45,875 nucleotides of DNA from Synechococcus sp. (GTDB taxonomy: Bacteria; Cyanobacteriota; Cyanobacteriia; Thermostichales; PCC-7336), in NCBI GenBank assembly GCA_051439425.1, contig JBFRWD010000020.1, positions 1 to 45,875 of the forward strand, given 5' to 3'. The stretch's first letter is position 1. Each line of letters starts with the position of its first letter. The notes under the pieces were generated by a model. The model was not told where the DNA came from, did not search any database, and worked only from the letters and a program-made list of their open reading frames with translations. The position numbers were made by a program, and so were the translations under genes. Shown here in pieces: positions 3,324 to 44,609 of the stretch.

Positions 3324-3743
3324 TTATTTTCCTACAGGTCGATGGGAGAGCGCCTGAGCAGCTTAGAACGGTGAAATCGAGCGAGCGCGGGGTGAACCTA
3401 ACAGAGTTCGGCGAAACAACAGTGCTCCACCTTTGCCTGACCGAGCTACACCTAACCTGCTGCCGGTTGCTTCAGCCACACAGTATATAGGTAGGAGTAG
3501 CGCTGCAGTAGCGCTTGCTTACTTCTGGGAGAAATTGCAAATTTTTAACCCGGGCTACAGCTTTGCAATCGGTCGGATCGGGAGGTGATCGCCATCTCCC
3601 CGTACTACCCACCAAATAATCGGCAAACTGCGCATTCTTGTGGAAGAAACCGATTCGGAGCGGCAAACTCCATCCATCATGAGCGTAGAACGTGCAAAAC
3701 CTGCCAGCCCCAACCCCCTTCCCCGACAACACTCACAACGCGC

Positions 3744-4370
3744 ATGATTAAAAACGATCGCTGGATTACCGCTCAAGCCAACCAAGGCATGATTGCCCCC
3801 TTCGAGCCCCACCTCGTCCGACAAGTTCCAAGCTCTCAAGGTGACCCCTCTCACGTTGGGATCCTCAGAGATCGCATTCGCCAAGTACTGAGCTACGGCC
3901 TATCCTCCTACGGTTACGACATTCGCCTCTCCCCCGCCGACTTTCGCATCTTTCGCCACATCCCTGGTACCGTTGTCGACCCCAAACATTTCAACCCCGA
4001 CAACCTCGAATCCACTCCGCTACATGCAGATGAGGAAGGCGAGTACTTTATCCTCCCCGCCCATTCCTACGGATTGGGGGTAGCGATCGAACGACTGGAA
4101 GTCCCGGCTAACATCACTGTCATTTCAATTGGCAAAAGCACCTACGCCCGTTGTGGCATCATCGCCAACCTCACCCCCGCTGAAGCAAGCTGGCGCGGCC
4201 ATCTCACCCTCGAATTCTCCAATGCCTCCAGTGCCGACTGCCGAATCTATGCCAATGAGGGGGTGGTGCAACTGCTGTTCTTAGAAGGGGAACCCTGCGC
4301 CACCACCTACGCCGATCGCGCCGGAAAATACCAAGATCAACCCCAACAGGTGATTGTTGCCCGCGTGTAA
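3744..4370 (+). CDS. dcd: dCTP deaminase
   Basis: ATG at 3744 (MIKNDRWI). Motifs SYGLSSYGYDIRL, GKSTYARCG, YANEGVVQLLF and YADRAGKYQ. Confidence 0.95.
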   Translation: MIKNDRWITAQANQGMIAPFEPHLVRQVPSSQGDPSHVGILRDRIRQVLSYGLSSYGYDIRLSPADFRIFRHIPGTVVDPKHFNPDNLESTPLHADEEGEYFILPAHSYGLGVAIERLEVPANITVISIGKSTYARCGIIANLTPAEASWRGHLTLEFSNASSADCRIYANEGVVQLLFLEGEPCATTYADRAGKYQDQPQQVIVARV

Positions 4371-7400: not shown

Positions 7401-8018
7401 GTGTACGCTGACGTGCCGACGCTGGATGAGCGGGAAGTGCGCCGACTCAAAGAGTTGTTGCCCGCCGGTAGCCGGGATGAAATTGATATCAGTGGAGCAC
7501 CCTTCAGTCAGACGGACGTCATCCGCTGTCGCCGACTGTTTCCTTGGCAGAAGCGGCTAAAAGTGACGATCAAACCTCGCGATTGGGAGCAGTTTAGCCC
7601 CAATCAGAGCTCGACCATTTTTTTGCATACGATCGGATTTCACAGTCCTTCCCTCACCCGCAGCCTCGACTTTTACGCAGCTTTAGCGGGGCTTGGAGGA
7701 GTTAGCCTCATGGTTGAAGGATTCCAGAAAGATCCTGTCGGTATCGCGGTCTCTGGCAGTTTGGGAGGCTTGGCCATCTGGCAGTTGATGAAGGATCGAA
7801 ATAGCGATCGCCGTCTGTTGGCTGCTGATGCCTATGCTGTCGATCGCCTCGTACTGCGCGGTGTTTCTCGCATCGAAGCCGTAGAAGCGTTGGGACAAGC
7901 CTTGCATATTGAGGCTCGATTAGAGGGGCGATCGGGGAATGACGTTGTGGACGTGCTGCGCTACCAGAACTTAAAGCGACTGGCACAGCGACCTGCCGAA
8001 GATATTGTGCTTGGCTAG
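7401..8018 (+). CDS. Cyanobacterial membrane-associated protein, DUF3318-like
   Basis: ORF 7368..8018, with GTG at 7401 after GGGAGG. Motif EVRRLKELLPA, two hydrophobic segments, then AD..A and IEARLEGR motifs recalled for DUF3318. Confidence 0.65.
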   Translation: MYADVPTLDEREVRRLKELLPAGSRDEIDISGAPFSQTDVIRCRRLFPWQKRLKVTIKPRDWEQFSPNQSSTIFLHTIGFHSPSLTRSLDFYAALAGLGGVSLMVEGFQKDPVGIAVSGSLGGLAIWQLMKDRNSDRRLLAADAYAVDRLVLRGVSRIEAVEALGQALHIEARLEGRSGNDVVDVLRYQNLKRLAQRPAEDIVLG

Positions 8019-8200
8019 CGTCTGTTTTGGGTGTACACCTGTCTTTCGCACTGAATCACCTTTAAACCTCAAGAGCGCGGGGGCAACCAGCGCGATATGG
8101 TGATGTAGCCGCAGTGGTTGCCAGATCGCTGGCGGCAGTTCGGTAGGGGTTATGCCGAGCTGGAGATGAATCAAAGACGTGTCAGCAAAAGGCTAGAGCA

Positions 8201-8896
8201 GTGGAAGAGCTACCGTTGGGAGACAAACTAAACAACGTCGCTCCCCTCGAAGTCCCCATTCACAAAGAGTTTGACGGTCAGTTTGTCAAACTGCGCCCTC
8301 TGGATATCGATCGCGATATCGATAATTTGTACGCAATCTCCCACGGCGATCCGGAAACAGAAAAGCTGTGGACGTACATGTCTGGTGGCCCATTTACCGA
8401 TCGCGATGCCATGCGTACGTGGTTGACAACCTTAGTCGACGATCGCAATCGCCTCCTGTTTTGTGTTGAATCCAAATCTCTACAGAAGGTCGTGGGGATG
8501 GTAGCTTACCAGGCGATTGCTCCCAGCATGCACCGACTAGAGCTAGCTCACACTTGGTATTGCCCCGAAGCCCAACGTACAAAGGTCAATACCGAAGTGG
8601 CCTATCTTCTACTCAAACATGCGTTTGACGACCATGCTTACCGACGGGTGGAATGGAAATGTGACGCCCTCAATTTGAAGTCTCGCAATGCGGCGTTACG
8701 GTTGGGATTTAGCTACGAAGGAACGTTCAAACACCATATGGTGATCAAGGAGCGCAATCGCGACACCGCTTGGTTTGCCATGCTAGATAGCGACTGGCCT
8801 CAGCTTAAAGAGCACATGGAAAAGTGGCTATACAGTGAAGAAGACTGCTCGTTATTTGCACTCAATCAGCCCCAACTTCGCCGTGCATTCTTCTAA
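8201..8896 (+). CDS. GNAT family N-acetyltransferase (RimL/YdaF-like)
   Basis: Motifs YRRVEWKCDALNLKSRNAALRLGFSYEGTF and RNRDTAWFAMLDSDWP. Confidence 0.9.
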   Translation: MEELPLGDKLNNVAPLEVPIHKEFDGQFVKLRPLDIDRDIDNLYAISHGDPETEKLWTYMSGGPFTDRDAMRTWLTTLVDDRNRLLFCVESKSLQKVVGMVAYQAIAPSMHRLELAHTWYCPEAQRTKVNTEVAYLLLKHAFDDHAYRRVEWKCDALNLKSRNAALRLGFSYEGTFKHHMVIKERNRDTAWFAMLDSDWPQLKEHMEKWLYSEEDCSLFALNQPQLRRAFF

Positions 8897-9379
8897 TGGT
8901 AGACAGTCGATTGAGTTAATCTAGGGCAGCTTGCGAGGAACTGCAATAAGCTGCCTGAAAAATAAATCACCTGTACGCCCGCCTAAATATATTAATTTAT
9001 GCAAAATTGGCCAAGTTTTGTTCTCCATATCTCGTACTCCATTTTATCGCTGGAGAAGGATTTTCTTCGGGGGCTTATTATATCTTTTTGGAGTTTTAGG
9101 TGTAAAGAATTAGCCCCGGTCTCTGTACTTTGCAATATGTAAGCCAAGAAGGTTCACTTTCTGTCAAGTTGCCGTATATTTGTTGTGTGACGATAAGGTA
9201 AATTTACGGGATTTCTTGCCCCTAAAGTGAACTGTTCCGAGCGGCATCTTTCACATCGAACTTTCATCAACCTCTTGAGTACAGCGAGAGGTTGACTTTC
9301 GAAAAAAATAATTTTCTCTAACAACTGCCAGTACAGACGTTGGCGGAATTATTTCCTCGTTCTAAATTGCTTTATTCCT

Positions 9380-38462: not shown

Positions 38463-40010
38463 CTACGAATCTTCGGGGTCACAGACGACGCGGAAACCGA
38501 TGAAGTAATCGCAGCCGTCGTATTTGCAGCCAATGCGATAGGACGAACGACAAATGCTGGGTTCGCTATCCCAAGAGCCTCCGCGTAGCACGCGCGTGTC
38601 GTCGAACTCACCTTCCACCCATGGTTTGCTTGTATCGGGGGCGCCGTCGTAGGAGTTGTGCCAGTAATCCGTGCACCATTCCCATACGTTGCCGTGCATA
38701 TCGTAGAGGCCATATCCGTTTGCAGGATAGTTGCCCACATCTGTGGTTTGGTTGTGGGTATCTAGGGTGTTGGCGGTTTCGGGAGAGATGTCGTCTCCAA
38801 AATGATAGGGAGTTTTGGTCCCAGAACGGCAGGCATATTCCCACTCAGCTTCGGACGGAAGGCGGAAGCTCCACCCCGAGTATTGGGTGAGGCGATCACA
38901 AAATTCCTGGGCCTGCTCGAAGGTAACGCTCTCTACCGGGCGGTTGTCCCCATTAAAACCAGAGGGGGAAAGACTGAGGTCATGGTTAACGCGGGGCCAG
39001 CGAGCCACCATTCTCCATTGGGACTGGGTTACGGGATAGGACGCGATCGCAAAGGGAGAGACTTTGACCTCATGCTGGGGGCGTTCGTCGTTGTCGCTAC
39101 CCTGCTCGTCGGTGGGGGCACCCATGACGAATGAACCCGCAGGGATATTGCGCATTTCTATATGGGTGCTGTCCCCCAAGTGCACGACAATGCCTTGATG
39201 GAGTTCGGTGATTGTGGGCTGCGGATGGTCGATCCGCTGCTCCGCTTTGATGTCGCTGTCAGAGTAGTCGCTGTCAGAATAGTTGCTGAGGTCATCTTCT
39301 ATTTCGCTGTAGCCATCTTGGATGTCATTGGCTTCGACATCATTGGCTTCGTCGTCATTAGCCTCATAGTATTCAGCTTCGTAATAGTCGACTTCGTCCT
39401 GGACGACTTCGCCATTGGCATCGCTGAGGTTGTCAACGTTAAGTTCGCGAGCATCGATGTATTCGACATCAGCGTCAGGGGCTGCAACGTACTCTTCGCT
39501 GGAGGCTGCTTGAGCGAGATGATAGCCTTCGGGGTCGAAACTGGGGGATGGCTCGTCATCGGGATAGGCCAGGGTGGGACGGGCGATCGCAAAGTCTGGC
39601 TTGTGGGAGATGCGTTCGCGTAACTGTTGAATGGGATCTGGGCGGTATTTGCGGAAATCAACCCAAGATTGTCCCTGCATGTAAGTGGGAAGCTCGGGGC
39701 GAGTTCGGACTTCTTCTAGAATGACGGGAATGATAGGGCAGTTGAGGCGCGCAAACTCTAGCAGAAATGCTTGAATGTCCAGATCGCTCCACGGAGTACC
39801 ACCAGGGCCGACAAACACTGCCACCGACCCGACTTCTAGAAGGTGTTCGTCCAGTTCCTGTTTCCATAGTTTCCCAGGCTGCAATTCCCACTCATCCAAC
39901 CAAACGTTCAAACCGCTGGTCTTGAGCTGTTGGGCAATCTCGCTCACTTGGTTTTTGTCGTGGCTGTTGTGGCAGAGAAAGACGTCGAAAGGCCAATTGA
40001 ACTGGGACAT
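38463..40010 (-). CDS. TIR domain + acidic linker + FGE-sulfatase (SUMF1/CLec-fold) domain protein
   Basis: N-terminal TIR_2-like FDVFLCHNSHDK..VWLDEWEL. C-terminal [36 protein letters not shown] and RGGSW..GFRVV. Confidence 0.92.
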   Translation of the reverse strand: MSQFNWPFDVFLCHNSHDKNQVSEIAQQLKTSGLNVWLDEWELQPGKLWKQELDEHLLEVGSVAVFVGPGGTPWSDLDIQAFLLEFARLNCPIIPVILEEVRTRPELPTYMQGQSWVDFRKYRPDPIQQLRERISHKPDFAIARPTLAYPDDEPSPSFDPEGYHLAQAASSEEYVAAPDADVEYIDARELNVDNLSDANGEVVQDEVDYYEAEYYEANDDEANDVEANDIQDGYSEIEDDLSNYSDSDYSDSDIKAEQRIDHPQPTITELHQGIVVHLGDSTHIEMRNIPAGSFVMGAPTDEQGSDNDERPQHEVKVSPFAIASYPVTQSQWRMVARWPRVNHDLSLSPSGFNGDNRPVESVTFEQAQEFCDRLTQYSGWSFRLPSEAEWEYACRSGTKTPYHFGDDISPETANTLDTHNQTTDVGNYPANGYGLYDMHGNVWEWCTDYWHNSYDGAPDTSKPWVEGEFDDTRVLRGGSWDSEPSICRSSYRIGCKYDGCDYFIGFRVVCDPEDS

Positions 40011-40365
40011 TGGGGCTACAGATACTCGCGGACTACAGGTACTTCAGATTGCAGAGGGGGAGATCGAATGAGACAGCGATGCCGATTGCACCGTTCATTA
40101 GTGTCCCCATAGATTCTCAAGAAAACGTCAATGAATGCCGGAGAAAACACCAATCCGTATACCTGAGGTTAAGAAGATAAAAAATTAACAAGAATCATAA
40201 AAGTATCTCTGTTTGGAAGATGTGGGAAGGTTAAATTAGCACTCTCCGTCCGTATTGGGGAGAGTGCTAGTGGTGATTTATAAAAAGTCAACGCGCAGAT
40301 TTTGAGTGGCTAAATCAGCGAACTCTTGCCCTGTTTCGACGTTGGCATCTACAGGGGACAGTGTT

Positions 40366-40935
40366 TCATACGGTTTGACCTTGAATTGTTTTGCCGCGAT
40401 CGCCAGCCCAGGTGACCCAGTGATGGCTGGCGACATGGGGCACGTTGAGGAAGTTATCGGGTGTTAGCCGGGAACCCGCTAGCTTGGCTTTGTTTAAATT
40501 AGCTCCTCTCAAGTCCGCCCGACTGACGGCAGTATTCATCAACAGTGCGCCTTCCAAATTGGCCCCTTCTAGGTCTGCATCCGTTAGATTTGCTCCTCTA
40601 AAGTTACAGTTTTCCATCTGAGCACACCGCATATCGGCTTGCTGAAGGTTGGCTGCAGACAGGTTTGCGCCGGTTAGATCGGCTCCGATTAAATTGACAT
40701 CCGTCAAATTTGCGCCGAGTAGCACGGTTCCTGTCAGGTCGGCATTGGATAGGTTGGACTGGCTCAAATTGGCTCCGCTCAGGTCGGCGGAACTCAGGTC
40801 AGCGGAACTCAGGTCAGCTCGGCTAAGGTCGATTCGAGATAGGTTCATGCCGCGCAAGTCTGCGCTATGTAGGTTGGCATCGGTACAGTCTTGGATGCCC
40901 GTACAGTATTTTCTCAGTAGTTCTAGTCCTTTCAC
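40366..40935 (-). CDS. Pentapeptide repeat protein
   Basis: Many A(D/N)LxG/S repeats. Likely GTG start at 40935 (MKGLELLRKY). Confidence 0.92.
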   Translation of the reverse strand: MKGLELLRKYCTGIQDCTDANLHSADLRGMNLSRIDLSRADLSSADLSSADLSGANLSQSNLSNADLTGTVLLGANLTDVNLIGADLTGANLSAANLQQADMRCAQMENCNFRGANLTDADLEGANLEGALLMNTAVSRADLRGANLNKAKLAGSRLTPDNFLNVPHVASHHWVTWAGDRGKTIQGQTV

Positions 40936-41274
40936 GGAGTACCTCCCAAACAAGTAACGTGTGTGGGTCTGGAAGGTATGGCAATCTTGTGGTTTTCGAG
41001 AGCTGAGTATCCCTATTCAAATAATTGCAATTTCGAAATTATCGGGAGCTGGGGGGCTCAGCAATGGAGCGTGCAATGTTGGTGACTGTCTTACCTTCAA
41101 GACGATGCTATTACCATGCGGCTGGTGAGCCGAACCGTATCCTACACAGCGCGGACTCGCCATTGTCAAAGACTGGCTTTGACTGTTCGATCCTAACAAT
41201 TTTGAAAGGCAAGTGGGGACTGGGAAGAGGGCGATCGGGTTACGAAGTATTTGGATTTCGCTGAAAAAAATCGA

Positions 41275-41287
41275 AGCGCTTCGCGCT
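41275..41287 (-). promoter_or_regulatory. GC-rich hairpin with GAA triloop, a candidate DGR target-recognition element (or terminator)
   Basis: Minus strand reads AGCGC-GAA-GCGCT, about 60 nt downstream of the FGE gene stop, then TCGA and T7. Confidence 0.55.
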
Positions 41288-41349
41288 AAGAGAGTGAAAA
41301 AAGGCCGAGGGCAAAGGGCTAAAGGGCAAAAAGAGCAAAGGGGAAGAAA

Positions 41350-42597
41350 TCACGCGGGGGAACAGGCAACCCGGAACCCCATGTTGTAGCCACGGCCCTC
41401 AGGATAGTACCCCTCGCGATAGGCAGAGCAGCAGTCCCAGGGATCACCGATCCAAGAGCCACCACGCAGCACCCGTCCTTTGTCTTTTCCTTTTATCCAG
41501 GGGGTTCCCCCTGGGGGCGCGCCTTCATAATTTTTGTGCCAAACATCCGCACACCATTCCCAGACATTGCCGTGCGTGTCATACAGCCCAAAAGCATTAG
41601 TGGGAAGTCTGCCTACCTCGGTCATTCCCTTGAAGTGCTTACCAAAATTGGCCATTTCAGGTGTCAGCTCTGTGCCGAAGGAAAAGGGGGTAGTTGTTCC
41701 TGCTCGGCAGGCATACTCCCACTCGGCTTCGGAGGGTAAGCGAAAGGTGAAGTTTGTTTTGGCAGAGAGGCGATCGCAAAATTCTCGTGCCTCGTACCAA
41801 GACACTTGTTCGACCGGTCGATTCTCCCCCTGGAATTTCGATGGAGCCAGCTTTAAATCTCGATTGACTTTCGACCATCCAGCAACGGTCTTCCACTGAG
41901 CTTGAGTGACTGGATATTTCCCCATCTAGAAGTTAGAGATTATGACTTCATGTTGGGGGCTTTCGTACTCATGAGCATCCCGATCATCCTTCGGTGACCC
42001 CATCAAGAAGGTTCCACCAGGTATCGACACCAGTTCTAAAACAACGCCATTACCCAGATCGATTTTCTTTAGCTCTTGTCGATCGCTTGCTTGTTCTGCA
42101 AACGTAACTGGAGTAGCGACAACCGGAGAAGGAGTAACTGTTTCTGGTGCAGGATTGTCTATCTGTTGTGAAAACTCTGGAACTGTTCGATCGCCCGTGA
42201 TCCCGTAATACAACTGGTGCAAAGGAATCGGCTCACTCTTGCGAAAATCCACCCACGTATGGCCCCGCAAAAACAACGGCAGCCGAGGCGGATCGCCCAC
42301 CCGCTCCAGAATCACCGGAATCACCGGACATCGACGCCGCACAAACTCCCGCAAATACGCCTGAATCTCTATATCCTGCCAAGGCCCAATCCCATCCGGC
42401 CCCACAAACACCGCCGCCGCCCCAATCTCCTCAATACAGTCTTCCAACGCAGGCTGCCACGGCAACCCCGGCCGCAATTCCCACTCATCCAGCCACACCC
42501 GCAACCCCATTTGCCTGAGCTGCAGTCCAATCTCTTTCACCTGTGGCTTGTCCCTGCTGTTGTGACACAAGAACACATCAAACTGCGAATCCGGCAC
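41350..42597 (-). pseudogene. TIR + FGE-sulfatase (CLec-fold) gene interrupted by one in-frame TAG; putative DGR target
   Basis: ORFs 41926..42597 and 41350..41925 are contiguous and in frame ([15 protein letters not shown]). The stop falls inside the FGE domain. The joined product is colinear with the paralog at 38463..40010. Confidence 0.85.
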
Positions 42598-42681
42598 AGG
42601 GCGTCCTTAATGCTTTAGAGCTAATGGTAAGGGGTGGGGAAGAGAAGGGGGAGAGGAATAGCTGATGGTGGAAGAGGTTTG

Positions 42682-42783
42682 TTTCGTCCTTCGTCTTTTG
42701 TCCTTCGTCATTAGTAGGGAAGCAACACAAACAACCAATGACCCATGACCAATGACCCATGACCCCAGCCCCCATCACCCCCT
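42682..42783. repeat. Heptamer tandem repeats (STRR-like)
   Basis: TTTCGTC-CTTCGTC-TTTTGTC-CTTCGTC at 42682-42709 and CCAATGA-CCCATGA-CCAATGA-CCCATGA at 42735-42762, followed by CCCCA units. Confidence 0.8.
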
Positions 42784-42875
42784 TTAAATACTCAAATCAC
42801 CCAGCATCAAACCCCCAACAATAAACCTGTATTACGATGGAAAGCAAGGAAACTTAACGTTTGGTGGATGGCCTA

Positions 42876-44609
42876 ATGGTTGCAACCGCTCCCGCTGTAA
42901 AGCGTCTCACCGTTCAAACCGAAGAAATCGCCGCCGATACTACAACCCTGCGCAGCCTGGACTGGGATCGCGATCGCTTTGACATCGAATTCGGCCTCCA
43001 AAACGGCACCACCTACAATTCCTTCCTAATTCGCGGCGAGCAAACCGCCCTGGTGGACACCTCCCACGCCAAGTTCCGCCAGCTCTATATGGATCTGCTC
43101 AAAGGCCAGATCGATCCCGCCACCATTGACTACCTGATCGTCAGCCACACCGAACCCGACCACAGCGGTCTTGTTGGCGACATTCTCGAACTCAACCCCG
43201 ACATCACCGTCGTTGCCTCCAAAGTGGCAATGACCTTCCTCGACAACCAAGTCCACCGCCCCTTCACCAAGCGCACCGTCAAAAGCGGCGACACCCTAGA
43301 TTTGGGCAACGGCCACGTCATCCAATTCCTGCTGGCCCCCAACCTGCACTGGCCCGACACCATCTTTAGCTTCGACACCGCCACCGGCGTCCTCTACACT
43401 TGCGACGCCTTTGGCATGCACTATTGCAGCGACCTGGTGTACGACGAAGACCTCAGCGTCATCGAAAAGGACTATCACTTCTATTACGAGTGTTTGATGG
43501 CTCCTAACACCCGCTCGGTCATTAAGGCGCTGAAGGGGCTGGACAAGCTGCAAAAAGAACACGATATCAACATCATCGCTAACGGCCACGGCCCTCTGCT
43601 GCGCTACAACCTGCAGGAGTTGTTGGGTCGCTACCGCACCTGGAGTGCTAACCAAAGTCAGGCTGCCACGACAGTCGCAGTGTTCTACATCTCTGACTAT
43701 GGCTATAGCGATCGCCTTACTCAAGCTATTGCACACGGCATCACCAAAACTGGTGTCGCCGTCGAAATGATGGATCTCAAAGGAGCCGATCCCCAAGAAG
43801 CTTACGAACTGGTGGGTGAAGTGAGTGGCCTTGTCATTGCCATGCCTCCTGCAAGCGGCCCCATGACCGAAGAGATTCAGGCGGCCCTCAGCACTGTGGT
43901 AGCCGCTGCTAGCAATAAACAAGGGTTGGGATTGGTGGAATCCTACGGTGGCGATGACGAACCGATCGATACACTGCTAACCCAGTTCCGCGAAGCCGGT
44001 TTGGATCTCGGTTTCGATCCCATTCGCGTTAAGGACACCCCTACTGAAGCGACCTATCAGCTGTGCGAAGAGTCCGGCACTGACATGGGCCAAAAACTGA
44101 GTGTTAAGAAAAAGACGAAGAAGAAAAAATCAGTCGATAACGGCCTGATTCAAGCCTTGGGTCGTATCAGCAGCGGCCTGTATATCATCACTGCCCAGAA
44201 AGGGGATGTACGCAGCGCTATGTTGGCCTCTTGGATTGCTCAAGCTAGCTTCGAACCGCTAGGCTTCACAGTTGCTGTTGCCAAAGACCGCGCGATTGAA
44301 TCTCTGATGCAAGTGGGAGACACCTTCGTTCTCAACGTGTTGGAAGAAGGGAATCATCTTAAGTTGATGAAGCACTTCCTGAAGCGGTTTGCCCCCGGTG
44401 CCGATCGCTTTGCAGATGTGAACGTGCAGGAGGCTAACAACGGCTCCCCTATCCTCACGGATGCTCTTGCCTACATGGAATGCACCGTCAGTACTCGCAT
44501 GGAAACCAGCGATCATTGGATTGTCTACAGCACCGTCAACGACGGGCGTGTCTCCAAACAAGACTCCCGCACCGCATCCCACCGCCGCAAAGTCGGTAAT
44601 TACTATTAG
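42876..44609 (+). CDS. flv3: Flavodiiron protein (diflavin flavoprotein), canonical di-iron ligands, Flv3-type
   Basis: RSLDWDRDRFDIEFGLQNGTTYNSF, SHTEPDHS, APNLHWPD and CDAFGMH, then flavodoxin and flavin-reductase domains (HRRKVGNYY). Confidence 0.9.
   Translation: MVATAPAVKRLTVQTEEIAADTTTLRSLDWDRDRFDIEFGLQNGTTYNSFLIRGEQTALVDTSHAKFRQLYMDLLKGQIDPATIDYLIVSHTEPDHSGLVGDILELNPDITVVASKVAMTFLDNQVHRPFTKRTVKSGDTLDLGNGHVIQFLLAPNLHWPDTIFSFDTATGVLYTCDAFGMHYCSDLVYDEDLSVIEKDYHFYYECLMAPNTRSVIKALKGLDKLQKEHDINIIANGHGPLLRYNLQELLGRYRTWSANQSQAATTVAVFYISDYGYSDRLTQAIAHGITKTGVAVEMMDLKGADPQEAYELVGEVSGLVIAMPPASGPMTEEIQAALSTVVAAASNKQGLGLVESYGGDDEPIDTLLTQFREAGLDLGFDPIRVKDTPTEATYQLCEESGTDMGQKLSVKKKTKKKKSVDNGLIQALGRISSGLYIITAQKGDVRSAMLASWIAQASFEPLGFTVAVAKDRAIESLMQVGDTFVLNVLEEGNHLKLMKHFLKRFAPGADRFADVNVQEANNGSPILTDALAYMECTVSTRMETSDHWIVYSTVNDGRVSKQDSRTASHRRKVGNYY

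What the first reader, a model, noticed from the sequence alone, without database searches (positions are those of the whole stretch)
41263..41480. TIR-CLec gene ends in a DGR-like variable repeat with a downstream GAA-loop hairpin: probable remote DGR target
Seen: the 3' end reads CGG GTG CTG CGT GGT GGC TCT TGG ATC GGT GAT CCC TGG GAC TGC TGC TCT GCC TAT CGC GAG GGG TAC TAT CCT GAG GGC CGT GGC TAC AAC ATG GGG TTC CGG GTT GCC TGT TCC CCC GCG TGA. It is followed by a pyrimidine-rich (TTTGCCC)-type tract (41308-41348) and AGCGC-GAA-GCGCT (41275-41287). Known: FGE-sulfatase/CLec domains are the usual DGR targets in cyanobacteria, the VR lies between GGSW and GFR, it derives from AAC/AAT-rich templates, and GC stems with GRA loops lie downstream. 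Most non-scaffold codons here (ATC, GGT, GAT, GAC, TAC, TAT, GGC, GGC, TAC, AAC) fit adenine mutagenesis of AAY. Inference: the gene is or was diversified in trans by an RT/template repeat (TR) located elsewhere, since neither is in this window. That would couple a hypervariable ligand-binding domain to a TIR effector.
Basis: partly seen in the sequence, partly recalled or inferred. Interest (0 to 1): 0.8.

Follow-up and report, generated by a model that had tools for sequence, protein, structure and literature searches.

The report
Orphaned, broken DGR target gene
This cyanobacterial TIR-lectin gene carries the marks of past targeted hypermutation by a retroelement, but it is broken by a stop codon and no matching template is found in its genome.

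Summary
The quoted sequence, the pyrimidine heptamer tract and the AGCGC-GAA-GCGCT hairpin are all present at the stated coordinates. The gene (41350-42597, minus strand) is TIR_2 plus FGE-sulfatase.

The genome holds one DGR, on contig C146: bAvd, RT, a template repeat (TR) and three variable repeats (VRs) that differ from the TR almost only at adenines. One of its targets is itself a TIR-FGE protein.

The window VR is not templated by that TR: 21 of 31 adenine sites and 30 of 84 other sites differ. It belongs to a second VR family. Matching TRs for that family exist in a same-genus genome (G001:C88) and a same-order genome (G024). No such TR, spacer element or second DGR RT was found in this 96% complete assembly.

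Several results show past DGR mutagenesis:
- The NNY codon signature: 11 of 13 third positions are pyrimidines, p=0.003.
- The 3' tract and hairpin match those behind four active VRs.
- Differences from a close orthologue cluster in the VR.

Verdict: an orphaned, decaying former DGR target. Active diversification from an unassembled template is possible but unlikely. TIR-CLec DGR targets are already published.

The parts
41350..42597 (-). TIR_2 + FGE-sulfatase (CLec-fold) gene. It would be 415 codons if read through, but is split into 223-aa and 191-aa frames by one nonsense codon.
   Evidence: ORFs; Pfam; read-through alignment to paralogues
41926..41928 (-). In-frame TAG where paralogues have Trp (FWMGKYPVT). 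It is followed directly by the conserved ATG.
   Evidence: A contig of run X1 (the probable source, so not independent) is identical across it (record 5).
42232..42576 (-). TIR_2 domain (PF13676), residues 8-122 of the upstream frame
   Evidence: E 5.8e-24
41365..41925 (-). FGE-sulfatase domain (PF03781), profile positions 39-254. The first ~38 profile positions lie upstream of the TAG.
   Evidence: E 1.8e-42
41350..41463 (-). VR-like tract (GGSW ... GFRVACSPA*). It aligns without gaps to the TRs of C146, G001:C88 and G024.
41305..41349 (-). Pyrimidine-rich heptamer tract (TTTGCCC/TTTGCTC type) between the stop codon and the hairpin. The same tract stands behind the true VRs of C146 and of G024.
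41275..41287 (-). Hairpin of 5 bp with a GAA triloop, core GCGAAGC. The outer pair is A-T here and G-C in the other 8 copies seen.
41264..41274 (-). TCGA followed by T7 directly after the hairpin (terminator-like tail), conserved behind the other VRs

Best explanation
The gene is a former target of a diversity-generating retroelement that is now orphaned and decaying. A DGR of a second ('family-2') type once rewrote its last ~110 coding bases from an AAY-rich template. An intact DGR of this type, with avd, RT and TR, stands next to the orthologue of contig C63's gene in the same-genus genome G001. The 3' module behind the gene is a heptamer pyrimidine tract, a GC hairpin with a GNA triloop and a T-run. 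I infer that it served as the target-recognition hairpin and doubles as the gene's terminator. In this genome the family-2 cassette is gone or at least not assembled. The one remaining DGR, on C146, has a non-cognate template and an RT with a premature TGA. The window gene has since acquired a nonsense codon and some non-adenine drift.

Shown: the anatomy, the non-match to the C146 TR, the absence of a second TR, spacer or RT from the assembly, the NNY signature, and the shared 3' module.

Inferred: that the hairpin acted in homing, and the order and timing of the losses.
For: (1) The C146 DGR is real. Its three VRs differ from the TR at 12, 13 and 14 of 31 adenines and at 0, 0 and 1 of 84 other sites. 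Its locus holds bAvd, RVT_1 and TIR_2+FGE targets.
(2) The window VR differs from that TR at 21/31 A and 30/84 non-A sites. The largest number of non-A differences reported among 372 DGRs is 11 (PMC5758913, passage read).
(3) Family-2 TRs exist in G001:C88 and G024, with cognate VRs at 5/83 and 2/84 non-A differences. The window VR differs from them at 18/31 A vs 22/83 non-A (Fisher p=0.002) and at 18/29 vs 21/84 (p=0.0004).
(4) At the 13 codons aligned to AAY of those TRs, the window has a pyrimidine in third position in 11/13, against 43% in the other 377 codons of the gene (binomial p=0.0027). Positions 1-2 are non-A at 15/26. The four family-2 VRs of this genome together have 49/52.
(5) There is no second template. 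blastn and nhmmer with a family-2 profile (10 hits, namely 4 family-2 VRs, C62, the window paralogue, 3 C146 VRs and the C146 TR) find none. An nhmmer profile of the conserved TR-downstream spacer finds only C146 at E<0.01. A search with the G001 RT finds only the C146 RT.
(6) C63's homology to G001:C88 stops where avd-RT-TR begins there.
(7) There is decay around the family. The window gene has a TAG. The C38 family-2 gene is frameshifted. The C146 RT has TGA where G001 has Arg. The complete genome G002 keeps a family-2 VR-like gene with 13/13 third-position pyrimidines but only a 49-aa RT remnant.
(8) The window VR has the most private non-A differences in its subfamily: 12 of 78, against 6-7 for the others.
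(9) Six of the 8 genome copies of the hairpin motif lie behind FGE VRs.
Against: The assembly is 96% complete in 182 contigs, so a cassette could sit in the missing part.

A contig of run X2 holds an orthologue 90-96% identical over the gene and differing at only 3 listed sites in the 150-nt 3' flank. It shows at least 12 substitutions within 41380-41413, 10 of them at codon positions 1-2. This suggests homing after the two lineages split, which is fairly recent. The 'private' non-A differences could therefore belong to an unseen cognate TR rather than to drift.

The hairpin is intact and its one stem change is compensatory, which suggests continued selection.

The TAG rests on one data set. 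X1 is probably the source of the assembly.
Confidence: 0.62

Rival explanations
1. Active remote DGR target. A cognate family-2b TR with avd and RT exists in the unassembled ~4% of the genome or on a mobile element, and still rewrites this VR. The TAG would be a population variant or would be bypassed by restart at the adjacent ATG.
For: The VR-concentrated, codon-position-1/2 differences from the X2 orthologue. The intact hairpin with a compensatory outer pair. The assembly is incomplete. Trans diversification of incomplete loci is documented in PMC10907252 (passage read).
Against: No TR, spacer or second DGR RT was found in the assembly by four searches. The pattern scan of metagenome contigs gave only one further VR-bearing gene fragment and no TR. 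The nonsense codon truncates the protein between TIR and most of the FGE domain. The window VR has the weakest NNY signature of its family: 7/13 third positions are C, against 11-12/13 in its three paralogues in this genome.
Confidence: 0.2
2. Diversified by the DGR present on C146.
For: The same genome, the same domain architecture as one C146 target (TIR_2+FGE) and the same 3' hairpin. Identity to the TR is 56% (64 of 115), which would pass the lenient >=50% rule for 'remote VPs' in PMC7517822.
Against: 30 of 84 non-adenine sites differ, and only 21 of 51 mismatches are at adenines. The 3' end of the VR, where homing must start, is unlike the TR's. The C146 RT carries a premature TGA.
Confidence: 0.02
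3. Never a DGR target. It is an ordinary FGE paralogue whose ligand-binding loop diverged under selection, and the hairpin plus T-run is just an intrinsic terminator inherited with the gene duplicate.
For: The hairpin with its T-run matches a simple terminator pattern. The flank's folding energy is not special. Paralogues share the 3' flank by descent.
Against: Third positions of the variable codons stay pyrimidine while positions 1-2 vary. This is the reverse of ordinary divergence. The variable codons coincide with the AAY codons of real TRs in relatives. The motif is not a general terminator of this genome: 6 of 8 copies lie behind FGE VRs.
Confidence: 0.1

Closest known systems
[quoted passage not shown] 2020, PMC7517822; passages read)
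   Same: A C-terminal CLec/FGE-sulfatase domain with the VR at the 3' end. The N-terminal signalling domain can be TIR-like. Paralogues are scattered through the genome away from the RT.
   Different: That paper counts a remote VP from >=50% nucleotide identity. Here the strict test, mismatches only at TR adenines, fails for the only TR present. The gene is also a pseudogene.
The TIR_2+FGE target of this genome's own DGR (G000:C146:14653-16032, minus strand)
   Same: The same two Pfam domains, the same VR position, and the same tract-hairpin-T-run module.
   Different: That VR differs from the TR at 12/31 adenines and 0/84 other sites. The window VR differs at 21/31 and 30/84. The proteins are 48.5% identical over 291 aligned residues.
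Family-2 DGR of the same-genus genome G001:C88 (target, avd, RT, TR)
   Same: The TR aligns without gaps to the window VR. Its AAY codons coincide with the window's variable codons.
   Different: It lies in another species. 22/83 non-A sites differ. Its local target is the orthologue of C63's gene, not of the window gene.
BPP-1 / phage DGR target hairpin-cruciform (Guo et al. 2011, PMC3240598; abstract and passages read)
   Same: A GC-rich inverted repeat downstream of the VR, beyond TR/VR homology. The loop starts with G and ends with A. Stem pairing matters more than stem sequence.
   Different: The phage elements have 7-10 bp stems and 4-nt GRNA loops, 4-34 bp from the VR. Here the stem is 5 bp, the loop is a 3-nt GNA (GAA, GCA or GTA), and it lies about 40-75 nt from the VR end after a heptamer pyrimidine tract, followed by a T-run. 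Function here is untested.
d(GCGNAGC)-type DNA mini-hairpins with GNA triloops (PMC3201870, abstract seen in the listing; the older literature is recalled only)
   Same: The core GC-GNA-GC with a C-G closing pair is exactly the form that abstract describes as very stable.
   Different: That is a biophysical model system. No link to DGRs turned up in search.
DGR-diversified conflict systems of multicellular bacteria (Dore et al. 2024, PMC10907252; passages read)
   Same: CLec sensors are joined to or associated with TIR, caspase and MoxR/VMAP components. The C146 locus has AAA/MoxR-like and caspase+VMAP-C genes next to its targets. Trans diversification of incomplete loci is reported.
   Different: The window locus has no such neighbours. 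It holds a pentapeptide-repeat gene, a second TIR-FGE paralogue and flavodiiron genes. No diversification is shown here.

Membership tests
Active DGR target (variable repeat) | A template repeat in the same genome that differs from the VR (almost) only at template adenines | tested here: not met
   The only TR (C146) differs at 21/31 A and 30/84 non-A sites. No other near-copy was found by blastn, by an nhmmer VR profile or by an nhmmer TR-spacer profile.
Active DGR target (variable repeat) | A DGR-class RT (with Avd) in the genome | tested here: inconclusive
   One RT with bAvd lies on C146. It has an in-frame TGA and serves a different TR. The assembly is 96% complete.
Active DGR target (variable repeat) | The VR lies at the C-terminus of a CLec/FGE-sulfatase fold | tested here: met
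   PF03781, E 1.8e-42, up to residue 187 of 191. The VR aligns to three TRs without gaps.
Active DGR target (variable repeat) | A GC-rich inverted repeat or hairpin downstream of the VR | tested here: met
   Located at 41275-41287. The same element stands behind 3 true VRs on C146 and behind the G024 VR. Its form differs from the phage consensus of PMC3240598.
Active DGR target (variable repeat) | An intact reading frame | tested here: not met
   TAG at 41926-41928.
Active DGR target (variable repeat) | Variation within a population restricted to template-A positions | tested here: inconclusive
   Only contigs, not raw reads, could be laid. The X1 contig is identical to the window. The X2 orthologue differs mainly in the VR at codon positions 1-2, but 14 of its 29 differences were not listed and gaps blur the alignment.
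Former DGR target (relic VR) | NNY codons at positions that are AAY in related TRs: third base kept, first two randomised | tested here: met
   11/13 third positions are pyrimidines against a 43% background, p=0.0027. 15/26 first and second positions are non-A.
TIR-domain protein (PF13676 TIR_2) | Domain match above the curated cut-off | tested here: met
   85.4 bits against a cut-off of 28.
TIR-domain protein (PF13676 TIR_2) | Catalytic glutamate / NADase activity | not tested
   No structure or motif analysis was run.
Intrinsic (Rho-independent) terminator | A GC stem-loop followed by a T-run at a gene's 3' end | tested here: met
   Pattern match with 5 pairs, a loop of 3 and the tail TCGATTTTTT. 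The scan found 3 sites against 2.1 expected, so the match alone is weak. Termination itself is not testable here.

The most novel reading that the evidence does not exclude
The heptamer pyrimidine tract plus the d(GCGNAGC) GNA-triloop mini-hairpin is the target-recognition module of this cyanobacterial DGR lineage, a compact variant of the phage GRNA hairpin. Genes that keep it after losing their template, like this one, would remain docking sites. Any incoming or unassembled family-2 avd-TR-RT cassette could then re-diversify them. On this reading the genus holds a standing reserve of 'DGR-ready' TIR-lectin sensors, with diversification switched on and off by gain and loss of cassettes.
Probability: 0.15. 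Interest if true: 0.55.

Novelty: new member of a known kind. Interest (0 to 1): 0.3.

Why it matters
On its own this is one more CLec-type DGR target paralogue, and a broken one. TIR-CLec targets and remote targets are already described.

Two things have modest value. First, it is a clear worked case where a lenient identity rule would call a 'remote target', while the adenine test, the missing template and a nonsense codon show an orphan. That matters for counting DGR targets in genomes. Second, the same small 3' module (heptamer tract, GC-GNA-GC hairpin, T-run) stands behind four demonstrably templated VRs and behind this relic. This gives a concrete, testable candidate for the target-recognition element of cyanobacterial DGRs.

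Tried and rejected
(a) The C146 TR as the template of the window VR: rejected, 30/84 non-A mismatches.

(b) A second TR in the assembly: none was found by blastn with word size 7, by an nhmmer VR profile or by an nhmmer spacer profile (the next hits have E 0.079 or worse).

(c) A second DGR RT: none. RVT_1 gives 1 hit and the G001 RT protein gives 1 hit.

(d) A pattern scan for the subfamily's VR 3' end. In genome contigs it gave 0 hits. Even G002, which carries the pattern, was not returned, so near genomes may be left out of that collection and the blank says little. In metagenome contigs it gave 1 hit, L028, another VR-bearing gene fragment at a contig end, with no TR and no RT seen.

(e) Close orthologues by protein search. 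The 'near' lengths gave a best match of 62% identity and the 'longer' lengths were dominated by multidomain FGE proteins at <=57%. No orthologue was obtained. 'Shorter' was not tried.

(f) Relatives: 16 of 41 genomes searched have DNA matches, but none above 81% identity outside the own genome.

(g) Rfam: no family at E<=1 in 40300-42900.

(h) Folding energy of the 98-nt flank: z = 0.15, and the minimum-energy fold does not contain the small hairpin.

(i) Stem covariation: the 9 hairpin copies found have invariant stems except for the window's outer pair, so no statistics were possible.

(j) Earlier findings of the scan: one note on this genome, unrelated.

(k) Runs X3, X4 and X5 hold little or none of the stretch. 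X3's pieces are short and mostly under 90% alike, so nothing was drawn from them.

Full report
**The observation.**
- A pyrimidine tract with a 7-nt period follows the stop codon. Tandem Repeats Finder places it at 41308-41330 with 3.1 copies.
- Next come AGCGC-GAA-GCGCT at 41287-41275, then TCGA and seven T.
- Pfam finds TIR_2 in the upstream frame (E 5.8e-24) and FGE-sulfatase in the downstream frame (E 1.8e-42).
An in-frame TAG at 41926-41928 replaces the Trp of the conserved FWMGKYPVT found in paralogues. As assembled, the gene is a pseudogene.
- A contig of run X1 is identical across this site. X1 may be the source of the assembly, so this is not independent support.

**The genome has a DGR, elsewhere.** The window is contig C20 of a 4.8 Mb assembly in 182 contigs, 96% complete.
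- RVT_1 has a single match in the genome, on contig C146.
- That locus holds a bAvd gene, a HicA-like gene, the RT, a 115-nt template repeat and three FGE-sulfatase genes.
- The 3' ends of those three genes differ from the template at 12, 13 and 14 of its 31 adenines, and at 0, 0 and 1 of its 84 other bases. This is a textbook DGR.
- One of the three targets is itself a TIR_2 + FGE-sulfatase protein of 459 residues.
- The neighbours are an AAA/MoxR-like ATPase and a caspase with a weak VMAP-C match. This is the kind of conflict-system setting described in PMC10907252 (passages read).
- The RT has an in-frame TGA where the G001 homologue has Arg. Since the VRs are still clean, this would be a recent break, if it is not a variant or an error.

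**The window VR is not a copy of that template.** Aligned without gaps, it differs from the C146 TR at 21 of 31 adenines and at 30 of 84 other bases.
- Only 21 of 51 mismatches are at adenines.
- In a survey of 372 DGRs the largest number of non-A differences in one target was 11, and non-adjacent targets were assigned only when differences were A-to-N with minor exceptions (PMC5758913, passages read).
- By the lenient >=50% identity rule used for 'remote VPs' in PMC7517822, this gene would pass, with 64 of 115 identical. By the mechanism-based test it fails.

**It belongs to a second VR family.**
- Members in this genome:
  - blastn and nhmmer find three paralogous 3' ends at 70-77% identity: C74, C38 and C63.
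  - With the window, these share the upstream scaffold, the stop context, the heptamer tract and, except for C63, the hairpin.
- Templates in relatives:
  - In the same-genus genome G001, contig C88 carries target-avd-RT-TR. That TR is of this second type, and so is a TR next to a VR in the same-order genome G024.
  - Their local VRs differ from them at 18/31 A vs 5/83 non-A, and at 18/29 vs 2/84.
- The window VR against those templates:
  - It differs from the two TRs at 18/31 vs 22/83 (Fisher p=0.002) and at 18/29 vs 21/84 (p=0.0004).
  - Differences are thus enriched at adenines but lie far from a direct copy.

**The signature of past adenine mutagenesis.** This test separates DGR history from ordinary divergence, because it looks at the third base of the variable codons.
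- At the 13 codons that are AAY in either family-2 TR, the window has a pyrimidine in third position in 11 of 13 and C in 7 of 13.
- In its other 377 codons the figures are 43% pyrimidine and 18% C (binomial p=0.0027).
- The first two positions are non-A at 15 of 26.
- The four family-2 VRs of this genome together have 49 of 52 third-position pyrimidines (p about 5e-15).
- Ordinary divergence would randomise third positions first.
- The window has the weakest signature of the family. It also has the most private changes at sites that are non-A in both TRs: 12 of 78, against 6-7 for C74, G002 and L028. Some of these could belong to an unseen cognate template rather than to drift.

**No cognate template in this assembly.**
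- The nhmmer family-2 profile finds ten places: the four family-2 VRs, C62, the window's second TIR-FGE paralogue, the three C146 VRs and the C146 TR.
- A profile of the conserved element that follows TRs (C146, G001:C88, G001:C34, G024) finds only C146 at a significant E-value.
- The G001:C88 RT protein finds only the C146 RT (62% identity, one TGA).
- C63 is the orthologue of the G001:C88 target, but homology ends where avd-RT-TR begins in G001.
- Outside the genome, a pattern for the subfamily's VR end gave nothing in genome contigs. That blank is uninformative, since G002 was not returned although it carries the pattern. In metagenome contigs it gave one further gene fragment.

**Decay is common in this group.**
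- Of the four family-2 genes in this genome, two are broken: the window by TAG and C38 by a frameshift between TIR and FGE.
- G001's second DGR RT has a TAG.
- The complete genome G002 has no DGR-type RT apart from a 49-residue remnant with two stops. It still keeps a family-2 VR-like gene with 13/13 third-position pyrimidines.

**The 3' module.**
- The motif [AG]GCGCG.AGCGC[CT] occurs 8 times in the genome, and 6 of those are 40-75 nt behind FGE VR ends.
- With relatives included I found 9 copies behind VRs. Their loops are GAA, GCA or GTA, and their stems are invariant except for the window's outer pair, which is A-T instead of G-C, changed on both sides.
- The module also stands behind the well-templated G024 VR.
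- Phage DGR targets need a GC-rich hairpin/cruciform just downstream of the VR, with 7-10 bp stems and 4-nt GRNA loops, 4-34 bp away. There the stem structure matters, and so does the loop sequence (PMC3240598, abstract and passages read).
- The element here is shorter and has a GNA triloop on a C-G closing pair. An abstract describes that form as a very stable DNA mini-hairpin (PMC3201870, seen in the listing).
- It is also followed by a T-run and matches a simple terminator pattern. Its folding energy in context is not special.
- I infer a dual role as terminator and target-recognition hairpin. Neither role is shown.
- My searches found no paper linking GNA triloops to DGRs. This covers only the held library.

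**Evidence from other samples.**
- Run X2 holds contigs of an orthologue:
  - 7 differences in 177 bases and 18 in 402 over the TIR part;
  - 62 in 649 over the FGE body;
  - 29 plus 3 gaps in 41200-41511.
- Of the 15 differences listed for that last piece, 3 lie in the 150-nt 3' flank and 12 lie within 41380-41413.
- Of those 12, 10 are at codon positions 1-2, and all fall in codons aligned to adenine-containing TR codons.
- Fourteen differences were not listed, the gaps make the local alignment uncertain, and the piece is one base longer than the window.
- With those caveats, the pattern suggests that homing occurred in at least one lineage after they split. This is the main reason I keep 20% on an active target with an unassembled template.

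**Verdict.** 'Is diversified' is not supported.
- The most likely reading (about 0.6) is an orphaned, nonsense-interrupted former target of a family-2 DGR whose cassette is lost from, or at least absent in, this assembly.
- The kind is known: cyanobacterial CLec targets with TIR-like N-termini and remote targets appear in PMC7517822 and PMC10907252. I therefore rate it a new member of a known kind, with modest interest.
- The most useful by-product is the small conserved 3' module as a candidate recognition element.
- Supplementary tables of the cited papers were not consulted. They may list comparable orphan paralogues.

Noticed in passing
G000:C146:10800-23291 (locus L029): A complete-looking DGR locus: FGE target (274 aa), TR, RT, HicA-like gene, bAvd, TIR_2+FGE target (459 aa), 902-aa FGE target, AAA/MoxR-like ATPase and caspase+VMAP-C. 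Three VRs have 0-1 non-adenine differences from the TR. The RT carries an in-frame TGA where the G001 homologue has Arg.
   Followed up: partly
window 38463-40010 (minus strand): A second, intact TIR_2+FGE-sulfatase paralogue (515 aa) lies 1.3 kb from the finding. It is 42.5% identical to the window gene. Its C-terminal loop is also rich in NNY codons, but it lacks the heptamer tract and hairpin.
   Followed up: partly
G000:C38 about 7649-9000 (minus strand; locus L031): A family-2 TIR-FGE gene with the TIR domain in one frame and the linker plus FGE in another. This is a frameshifted pseudogene that keeps an intact GGCGC-GAA-GCGCC hairpin.
   Followed up: partly
L025 (G001:C34) about 3700-3960, minus strand: A copy with FGE gene-body sequence upstream but the TR-type spacer downstream, and a partly AAC-rich, partly diversified repeat. 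It may be a TR embedded in a gene remnant, or a VR/TR chimera.
   Followed up: no
window 42683-42781: Two short heptamer tandem arrays upstream of the gene (units TTCGTCC and ACCCATG on the plus strand, 3.9 and 4.6 copies). They resemble cyanobacterial short tandem repeats; the resemblance is recalled, not tested.
   Followed up: no
window 41506-41607: In the metagenome runs the summed contig depth rises about 100-fold here (X1 about 2100-2280 against 11-50 nearby). Many other organisms' FGE genes share this conserved WEW / GAPPGG segment, so this is not a copy-number signal.
   Followed up: no
G002:C1:3228126-3228272 and G001:C56:42502-43542: Decayed DGR RTs in same-genus genomes: a 49-residue remnant with two TAG stops in the complete genome G002, and an RT with one TAG in G001. 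DGR cassettes appear to be lost repeatedly in this genus.
   Followed up: partly
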